This document shows, piece after piece, positions 48,635 through 52,614 of a stretch of 64,000 bases of DNA. The stretch is taken from assembly GCA_964016885.1 (NCBI GenBank), contig OZ024741.1, positions 81,716,001 through 81,780,000 of the forward strand, read 5' to 3'. The position numbers were made by a program, and so were the translations under genes. The notes beneath the pieces were generated by a model, which saw only the letters and a list, made by a program, of their open reading frames with translations, did not search any database and was not told where the DNA came from. The stretch's first letter is position 1. Each line of letters begins with the position of its first letter. This DNA is from Eledone cirrhosa. Its lineage: Eukaryota.

Positions 48635-49018
48635 ACGAAGGAATTGTGGTAAGGAACCAGATGGACCATAACGCCGTCGAAACGGCTTAAGCTCTGCCGT
48701 CGGGGTCATACTTGTTCCTATATATATATACATGTAGATATGTTGGTAGAAATCCGTCGATGTAAGATCAATGAAAACAGTGCTCGATCTGTTGGAAGAG
48801 AGCTTATTTAGTGTAAACAAAGTTTCATACACTTAATATGTCTGTGGTACTGATGGTTTCGGTGTCCAGTCATGGCGACTACTATATAATGGAGGAGACA
48901 CGTTTAAACTGGCGCTTCATTCAGGTATGTGTGTGGACGAAAATATTGGTAACACATACATGTTAAGTGTATAAAACTTTGTTTACATACATACACATAT
49001 ATATATATATATATACAT

Positions 49019-49486: not shown

Positions 49487-49702
49487 ATTAATATAAGCCA
49501 GGATGTTTATGCTATACTATTGAAACTGTCGAGTCAAACTATCTGGTAAATAGTTCTCTTGTTTACGCATTCATTCCTGATATACATAATCAAAACCTTA
49601 TCTACTTCCACACACACACAAACACACACACACACAAACACACACACACATACACACATACACACATACACATATATATATATATATACATACATATATA
49701 TA

Positions 49703-49885
49703 TATAAGGAAAAAAGTAGAAATCGAAAATGCAACTGTAGTCTTTTTAAGAATATTTATTTGTTTCCTTTACCGGTTTCACAGTTCTTATGCTTTTCATA
49801 AGAACTGTGAAACCGGTAAAGGAAATAAATAAATATTCTTAAAAAGACTCCAGCTGCATTTTCGATTTCATTTTTTTTCCTTATA
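49703..49885. repeat. Fold-back palindrome (~90-bp arms, 5-nt loop)
   Basis: ...TTTACCGGTTTCACAGTTCTTATG-CTTTT-CATAAGAACTGTGAAACCGGTAAA... Confidence 0.95.
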
Positions 49886-49927
49886 CTTTCACTCGTGTAG
49901 GACATCTCTTTTTCTTATATATATATA

Positions 49928-50537
49928 TGTGTGGTTACATACAGACTAGCTGACACTCACTGTAAAGTGTCTAGTGAAAAGCTGAGTACATGTACATATG
50001 TATACATGTGTGTATTTATATGCTTACTAATACTTCCGTATACATATGTAGATGTACACTTTAACTTAATTGTTTAAGCGTCAGTCATACAAAAGTGAGT
50101 TAGAAGCGAAACGAAATTTAATTTCGTTTCGTTATTTGTTTTTATCGTTTCCGCTGAACCGGTGCGTACAATGACTCACGTTCTATGCAAATTAGTCTAC
50201 CCACTACTAATTTTCATAGAAAAAGCATATAACGATATGTGCTTTTACAATTCTCCAGAGAAGCCGGAAGATGGGTAAATATTGCTGATGAGATGTAATA
50301 ACATCGAAACTAGTCCAATATTCCTGTCTGGCCCTCTGAAGAATAGAGGAAATGTGTTTCCTTGAAAACCCGTATGACTCTAAAACCCGGTCCGTCTGTG
50401 TGGTTACATACAGACTAGCTGACACTTACTGTAAAGTGTCTAGTGAAAAGCTGAGTACATGTACATATGTATACATGTGTGTATTTATATGCATACTAAT
50501 ACTTCCGTATACATATGTAGATGTACACTTTAACTTA
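49928..50537 (+). mobile_element. Retrozyme-like partial tandem: 469-bp monomer with 141-bp terminal redundancy
   Basis: Direct repeats at 49928-50068 and 50397-50537 with few mismatches. Internal HHR, no recognisable protein, (TA)n on both sides. Confidence 0.8.
50278..50322 (+). ncRNA. Canonical minimal type I hammerhead ribozyme
   Basis: AATATTG-CTGATGA-GATGT(AATA)ACATC-GAAA-CTAG-TC-CAATATT: 7-bp stem I, 5-bp stem II, palindromic loop III, GUC site at 50313-50315. Confidence 0.88.
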
Positions 50538-50633
50538 TATATATATATATATTTGGAAAATATTTACTGTAGAGTGCTTCCAATCTACTGTAAAACTCAT
50601 TCTTTGATGTACTCATTGAATCTTGTTTAACTC

Positions 50634-50720
<87 letters not shown>

Positions 50721-51843: not shown

Positions 51844-52307
<464 letters not shown>

Positions 52308-52338
52308 TAATAACTTGTGTGTTACACCTCTATTCTTT

Positions 52339-52614
<276 letters not shown>

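What the first reader, a model, noticed from the sequence alone, without database searches (positions are those of the whole stretch)
49703..49885. Long palindrome centred on a hammerhead stem II hairpin: possible cDNA snap-back product
Seen: the symmetry axis is a hairpin followed immediately by GAAA-CCGG-TA (49809-49818), the 3' half of a minimal Penelope-type HHR with a palindromic tetraloop. The 5' half (CTGANGA and stem I) is absent and replaced by the reverse complement of the downstream sequence. Established: Penelope-like elements carry minimal HHRs and often leave inverted terminal repeats. Inference: reverse transcription passed the uncleaved or re-ligated site, and the cDNA 3' end folded at stem II and self-primed second-strand synthesis. 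The ribozyme hairpin would then double as a fold-back primer. I know of no description of this positional rule.
Basis: partly seen in the sequence, partly recalled or inferred. Interest (0 to 1): 0.75.

Follow-up and report, generated by a model that had tools for sequence, protein, structure and literature searches.

The report
Mirror-image Penelope stump marks transcript start
The 183-base palindrome is a back-to-back pair of ends of an abundant Penelope-type jumping gene, a known insertion shape; in its relatives the mirror centre usually lies about 60 bases before the predicted ribozyme, likely where the element's RNA starts, and not on the ribozyme hairpin as first proposed.

Summary
The palindrome is real: 89-bp arms, 6 mismatches. 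It is a stump of an endonuclease-bearing Penelope-like element (PLE): an inverted tail-less pLTR end plus a direct end with a 32-nt tail, in (TA)n. Full-length RT + GIY-YIG copies end in the same sequence. GAAA-CCGG-TA is the 3' half of a minimal hammerhead, but the core is the published U3-A8 variant (TTGAAAA), not CTGANGA, and the long hairpin is not stem II.

The stem II rule fails. Of 100 family arms seeded 3' of the cut site, 1 starts in core/stem II, 49 start 54-65 nt upstream of GAAA, and none start in the next 20 nt. That wall lies 30 nt behind a TATA box, and two more families repeat it. So RT likely reads through the uncleaved ribozyme to the transcript's 5' end. All 27 palindromic pairs carry one tail, and the spacer belongs to either arm (9 vs 8), which favours joining of two cDNAs over one snap-back. 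This copy is off-hotspot.

The architecture and the self-priming idea are published; the scan noted such stumps, and a similar wall, before on other DNA. Also seen: two overlapping ORFs at a slippery site.

The parts
49672..49704 (.). (TA)n-rich target on the left; the exact boundary is blurred by TA
   Evidence: sequence; most relatives abut (TA)n
49703..49798 (-). Inverted, tail-less copy of the PLE pLTR end; reaches position -19 (GAAA = 0); includes the 5-nt spacer and the 2 nt shared with the right arm
49766..49798 (-). Nearly complete minimal hammerhead on the minus strand (core from U4, 3-bp stem II, GAAA, CCGG loop, predicted cut between 49770 and 49769); U3 is replaced and the 5' strand of stem I is lost at the junction
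   Evidence: U3-A8 variant in PMC4209133
49792..49798 (.). Junction: 5-nt spacer (reverse complement of core A6-G10.1) plus a 2-nt microhomology; about 45 nt 3' of the family hotspot
49797..49885 (+). Direct copy of the pLTR end, starting at -12 inside the 5' strand of stem II
   Evidence: near-identical to the old long copy L028 (4 mismatches over 117 nt, tail included) and alignable to full-length copy L045
49809..49818 (+). GAAA-CCGG-TA: 3' half of the U3-A8 minimal hammerhead; predicted cut after 49818
49886..49917 (+). One-sided PLE tail (32 nt; about 61 nt in young copies, where it ends about 27 nt before the ORF1 ATG)
49918..49929 (.). (TA)n target on the right
51942..52341 (+). Sister-family stump of the same build (palindrome to about 52307 plus tail); axis at -61, on the hotspot; compensatory changes in stems I and II, GCAA in place of GAAA

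Best explanation
The palindrome is a dead, head-to-head pair of pLTR ends of an endonuclease-bearing Penelope-like retrotransposon, likely made during insertion into (TA)n when two cDNAs, primed from the two cut strands at two fixed start sites on the RNA (arm end and tail end), were joined at their 3' ends. Shown: family identity, one tail per pair, the U3-A8 hammerhead motif, and a sharp pile-up of 5' ends at -65..-54, 30 nt behind a TATA box. Inferred: that pile-up is the transcription start, so the commonest product is a 150-210-nt run-off (strong-stop-like) cDNA that has read through the uncleaved hammerhead. This copy stops short of that wall (-19 and -12), through early termination, trimming at a 2-nt microhomology or a later central deletion; its centre falls in the hammerhead by chance.
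For: Identity: in 20 of 20 loci picked by the GIY-YIG domain the arm lies 3' of the ORF, after about 1.1 kb of UTR; tandem pLTRs and inverted tail-less copies occur; RVT_1 and GIY-YIG hits. Copy number: 405, 11,417 and 14,614 exact matches to three 28-29-mers, 0 for reversed controls. Wall: 49 of 100 arms start at -65..-54, 0 at -85..-66, 30 run past -86, 21 lie at -53..+34; old subfamily 34 of 84 at -64..-51 and none at -127..-65; sister family 7 of 23 at about -65..-62, 9 run on, 7 start 3' of the core; an unrelated C3-G8 hammerhead family 12 of 46 at -104..-87, 0 at -134..-105, TATA box at -134. A TATA-like box lies 30-34 nt before the wall in 78 of 88 long copies. 20 of the 49 wall arms sit directly on microsatellite, 17 of them with a tail. 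Joining: 27 of 27 pairs have exactly one tail; spacer from the tailed arm 9, from the tail-less arm 8; 7 centres of 2 nt or less. In vitro, a PLE protein nicks both strands, starts RT at two internal sites that bound the tail, and uses uncleaved RNA (PMC11167929); TSSs lie in pLTRs (PMC8557442).
Against: No RNA data place the transcription start; TATA and Inr matches are consensus matches only. Four of 100 arms start at +10..+14, at the predicted cut (p = 0.03, uncorrected), so some template may be cleaved. Several junctions use 4-5-nt natural inverted repeats with 18-25-nt loops and a longer tailed arm (L108, L135, L163, L175), which fits snap-back equally well. Some pairs (L216, L265) look like internal deletions, so spacer ownership may be blurred after insertion. 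Ribozyme activity is untested, and the covariation rests on three related lineages (8 rows). The samples are the first matches in genome order on two contigs, not random draws.
Confidence: 0.68

Rival explanations
1. Single-cDNA snap-back (self-priming): one cDNA folds back on a short internal inverted repeat and copies itself. The first reader placed the fold at hammerhead stem II.
For: Proposed for PLE palindromic junctions in PMC3846280. Junctions with 4-5-nt microhomology at natural inverted repeats occur, and the tailed arm is the longer one in 9 of 27 pairs.
Against: The tail-less arm is longer in 8 of 27 pairs and in this copy; 7 of 27 centres are 2 nt or less, and L223 and L254 have no loop; the fold at this junction is a 2-bp stem at +0.8 kcal/mol; 1 of 100 arms starts in core/stem II.
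Confidence: 0.15
2. This copy was inserted as the common wall-centred palindrome (about 270 bp) and later lost its middle by a cruciform-type deletion at a 2-nt microhomology. This concerns this copy only and is compatible with the family mechanism.
For: The copy is old (6 of 89 arm mismatches); 255-271-bp forms of the same subfamily exist (L022, L031, L034); L216 and L265 keep a scrap of wall sequence beside a deletion; centres vary among the closest copies.
Against: Off-wall junctions also occur in near-identical young copies, so they can be primary. No orthologous longer allele was available.
Confidence: 0.35
3. The wall at -62 is an RT stall or RNA-processing site, not the transcription start.
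For: Short inverted repeats lie just 3' of the wall; 30 of 100 arms pass it.
Against: It lies 30-32 nt behind a TATA-like box in three lineages and in an unrelated family with different sequence. Arms that pass it are expected from read-through of tandem copies.
Confidence: 0.2
4. A MITE or fold-back DNA transposon, or an assembly artefact.
For: Constant outer ends beside TA and a high copy number.
Against: The arm is the end of an RT + GIY-YIG element; one tail per pair, never two; internal ends vary and many copies are single arms; the arms differ at 6 sites, which a fold-back read would not give.
Confidence: 0.03

Closest known systems
Insertion units of EN+ Penelope-like elements with an inverted 5'-truncated pLTR and a one-sided tail (PMC3846280, passages and Discussion read; PMC8557442, passages read)
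   Same: Head-to-head inverted pLTR, tail on one end only, tandem pLTRs, (TA)n targets, RT with C-terminal GIY-YIG, CX2-5CxxC linker of the Neptune/Nematis type.
   Different: The tail is about 61 nt in young copies against the 30-40 nt described. Half of the arms share one 5' end behind a TATA box instead of random truncation. Full-length copies have two overlapping ORFs.
Minimal hammerheads of metazoan PLEs, U3-A8 variant (PMC4209133, parts 1-2 of 4 read)
   Same: Short stem I, palindromic 4-nt loop III, G10.1-C11.1 pair, U3-A8 covariation in the core, location in the pLTR.
   Different: Stem II is 3-5 bp and lacks the bulged base after A9; the old subfamily has G10.1-U11.1 and the sister family reads GCAA. 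Activity is untested.
Poseidon element of Anolis, in vitro (PMC11167929, parts 1-2 of 4 read)
   Same: Two RT start sites bounding the tail, both strands nicked, AT-rich targets, uncleaved RNA as template.
   Different: Another clade; its hammerhead overlaps the ORF start, while here it lies about 150 nt upstream of the ATG. The parts read report no 5' run-off wall.
L1 twin priming and LTR strong-stop cDNA (recalled, no call)
   Same: Two cDNAs from opposite target strands joined by microhomology; a short cDNA running off the RNA 5' end.
   Different: Here both primers would start near the 5' end of the RNA at fixed internal sites, which gives a palindrome and not an internal inversion.

Membership tests
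EN+ Penelope-like element | RT with a C-terminal GIY-YIG endonuclease | tested here: met
   775-aa ORF: RVT_1 E 1.3e-6 (28.7 bits, just under the 29.6 cut-off), GIY-YIG E 3e-6; GIY-YIG linked to the old subfamily in L035
EN+ Penelope-like element | pLTRs in tandem or inverted arrangement | tested here: met
   L042-L046, L051, L053 and L055 among 20 loci
EN+ Penelope-like element | Tail on one end of the insertion | tested here: met
   27 of 27 pairs; window 49886-49917
EN+ Penelope-like element | Single ORF | tested here: not met
   409-aa and 775-aa ORFs overlap by 87 nt in 8 loci (771 aa in L044); the same slippery-type junction lies at 18 places in 17 of 20 loci. Possibly one protein by frameshift or splicing
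Neptune/Nematis clades | CX2-5CxxC linker before the endonuclease | tested here: met
   C-X4-C-X2-C in the translation
Neptune/Nematis clades | RT phylogeny placing it in one clade | not tested
Minimal type I hammerhead | Canonical CUGANGA core | tested here: not met
   absent from the pLTRs scanned; no Rfam hammerhead hit in three loci at E 0.05
Minimal type I hammerhead | Core with a 3-8 pair, GAAA, UH and palindromic loop III | tested here: met
   U3-A8 in 246 of 254 motif contexts
Minimal type I hammerhead | Stems I and II with compensatory changes | tested here: met
   90% of cells paired, 3 pairs changed on both sides, slid controls 18-55%; only three lineages; the pair-count shuffle was not exceeded (211 of 500)
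Minimal type I hammerhead | Self-cleavage | not testable with these tools
   4 of 100 arms start at the predicted cut, inconclusive
MITE | Symmetric TIR ends with a constant interior, no RT parent | tested here: not met
   one-sided tail, variable centres, RT parent

The most novel reading that the evidence does not exclude
Because Penelope RT starts just inside the 5' end of its RNA, its main product is a strong-stop-like run-off cDNA that reads through the uncleaved hammerhead to the cap. Thousands of genomic stumps therefore map each family's transcription start, and head-to-head palindromes are two such cDNAs joined. In this family the replicase is also made through a -1 ribosomal frameshift, unlike the single ORF described for canonical EN+ PLEs.
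Probability: 0.55. Interest if true: 0.6.

Novelty: new member of a known kind. Interest (0 to 1): 0.38.

Why it matters
The locus itself is an ordinary dead stump, one of thousands. The family data bear on an open question that the cited papers name: how PLEs build inverted pLTRs and tails, and what the hammerhead does. They give a sharp prediction (capped starts at -62, 30 nt behind the TATA box), show that most inserted copies came from uncleaved RNA, and favour two-strand priming over self-priming. A young family with more than 10,000 exact seed matches and intact ORFs suits a genome-wide count and an in vitro test.

Tried and rejected
Strict CTGANGA scans and Rfam found no hammerhead in this family, and for a time I took it to have none; the U3-A8 variant in PMC4209133 reversed that. 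The seeds overlap the motif and cannot see 5' ends 3' of about -10, so the main count uses a seed 3' of the cut site. One search aligned 84 of 89 old loci, covering 93 of the first 100 listed matches; its far-upstream values are partly alignment breaks. In one search one of the 8 'loop 2 or less' rows (L257) is an alignment artefact and was dropped, leaving 7; the BLAST pairing missed some pairs seen. The repeat-masking step was faulty and was redone; outputs were cut and read in part. Early ideas dropped: MITE, Crypton or Helentron with asymmetric ends; GAAACCGGTA as a mere promoter word; TCAGTT as initiator. No RNA holder was listed. Contigs of four public runs (one study) carry the family, but no listed piece spans the locus, so there is no long-read check. 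No clear pseudoknot appeared after the slippery site (that fold cannot form pseudoknots). Cap-derived G could not be judged. Literature searches listed no paper on a TSS wall, on twin priming in PLEs, or on a frameshifted EN+ PLE. The library lacks most subscription papers (Schostak 2008 and Arkhipova 2006 were not read), and figures and supplements were not seen; Fig. 1 of PMC8557442 shows an optional frameshifted ORF1 whose clade I could not read.

Full report
Observation. Window 49703-49885 is a palindrome of two 89-bp arms with 6 mismatches around a 5-nt spacer; it folds at z = -22.8. GAAA-CCGG-TA is at 49809-49818. The genome is a 3.0-Gb assembly rich in microsatellites; earlier scan notes call it an octopus, which I did not test.

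What it is. A DNA search gave 86 matches from 40 scored of 2,747 candidates. Close copies differ in their centres, and some arms run on into about 850 bp of non-coding DNA that follows a GIY-YIG coding stretch. That domain found a large young family (150 scored of 21,941 candidates). In 20 of 20 such loci the arm lies 3' of the ORF; tandem pLTRs and inverted, tail-less, 5'-truncated copies are common. The 775-aa ORF has RT, a C-X4-C-X2-C linker and GIY-YIG. This is the architecture described for EN+ Penelope-like elements (PMC3846280, PMC8557442). Exact seeds give 405 old, 11,417 young and 14,614 combined matches.

The hammerhead. No CTGANGA precedes GAAA in the pLTRs scanned, and Rfam found none in three loci. 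But PMC4209133 describes a U3-A8 core, and the family fits it: a 3-4-bp stem I, TTGAAAA, a 3-5-bp stem II, GAAA, a CCGG loop and TA. U3-A8 is present in 246 of 254 motif contexts. Across young, old and sister lineages 90% of cells pair and three pairs change on both sides; this rests on three related lineages only. In this copy the junction cuts through the core/stem II boundary: the left arm reaches -19 and the right arm -12 (GAAA = 0), sharing 2 nt.

The positional rule. With a seed 3' of the cut site, 100 arms from the loci of the first 100 listed matches gave: 30 running past -86, none at -85..-66, 49 at -65..-54 and 21 at -53..+34, of which 1 lies in core/stem II and 4 at the predicted cut. 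Eighty-five keep the whole hammerhead. The old subfamily agrees (34 of 84 at -64..-51, none at -127..-65; this seed is blind 3' of -10), and only 2 of 17 old palindrome axes fall in the motif. The sister family, with a stump at window 51942-52341, shows the same wall (7 of 23). A TATA-like box lies 30-34 nt before the wall in 78 of 88 long copies. As an independent test I mapped an unrelated family with a canonical C3-G8 hammerhead (1,815 seed matches): 12 of 46 arms start at -104..-87, none at -134..-105, with a TATA box at -134, and 3 start inside the ribozyme. There is a positional rule, but it points to the likely transcription start and not to stem II.

Mechanism. PMC11167929 shows in vitro that a PLE protein nicks both strands, starts RT at two internal sites near the RNA 5' end that bound the tail, and uses uncleaved RNA. 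TSSs lie within pLTRs (PMC8557442). It follows, by inference, that RT primed at the tail end or arm end runs 150-210 nt to the 5' end of the transcript. Single products inserted in microsatellite give the solo stumps (20 of 49 wall arms); two products give palindromes. All 27 pairs examined have exactly one tail; the spacer belongs to the tailed arm in 9 and to the tail-less arm in 8; 7 have centres of 2 nt or less. One cDNA folding back from the tailed end predicts spacers only from the tailed arm and needs a loop, so joining of two cDNAs fits better. Against this, several junctions use 4-5-nt inverted repeats that suit snap-back, and later deletions may blur the count. For this copy the spacer is from the tail-less arm and the fold-back stem would be unstable (+0.8 kcal/mol); early stop and later deletion cannot be told apart.

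Novelty. The element, the layout, the self-priming idea and the U3-A8 core are published. My searches listed no paper on a TSS wall or twin priming in PLEs, within a library that lacks most subscription papers. Unreviewed notes of this scan already describe such stumps, two-strand priming and, in another genome, arms that stop before the ribozyme; they are not independent support. No RNA holder was listed, so the start site is untested.

Side result. Full-length copies have a 409-aa ORF overlapping the 775-aa ORF by 87 nt in the -1 frame, with a T TTT TTA heptamer that is the same at 18 places in 17 of 20 loci. A programmed frameshift is likely, but splicing is not excluded.

Verdict. Observation partly confirmed; interpretation partly supported; a new member of a known kind; interest 0.38.

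Noticed in passing
L045:3397-6860 (also L043, L044, L046, L047, L051, L053, L055): Full-length EN+ PLE with a 409-aa ORF (no Pfam hit) overlapping the RT-EN ORF by 87 nt in the -1 frame at a T TTT TTA heptamer; likely a programmed frameshift, although canonical EN+ PLEs are described as single-ORF.
   Followed up: partly
window 50267-50337: Canonical minimal hammerhead (CTGATGA core, CTAG loop; Rfam HH9, E 4.6e-4) of another element, lying between two 141-bp direct repeats (49928-50068 and 50397-50537).
   Followed up: no
window 51942-52341: Sister-family stump whose hammerhead has GCAA in place of GAAA in all 16 of 23 copies where the core is present, with compensatory stem changes kept.
   Followed up: partly
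L043:3870-4035: Possible 5' UTR intron: a GTAAAG donor-like site at the hammerhead cut site, and a CTAAT branch-like motif with AG just before the ORF1 ATG; not tested.
   Followed up: no
window 48635-48720 and 50556-50637: Fragments of two other tail-plus-palindrome families in (TA)n; the second is the tail of the C3-G8 family used as a control.
   Followed up: partly
L214, L243 (two pairs), L248, L279, L280: The same 1-nt-centre junction at -62/-61 recurs in 6 of 27 pairs; it may reflect blunt joining of two full run-off cDNAs or spread of one palindromic master copy.
   Followed up: no
L035:3200-3560, L028: The old-subfamily pLTR holds repeated units with CCAAT-like, E-box-like and E2F-like words upstream of the TATA box (motif names recalled).
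   Followed up: no
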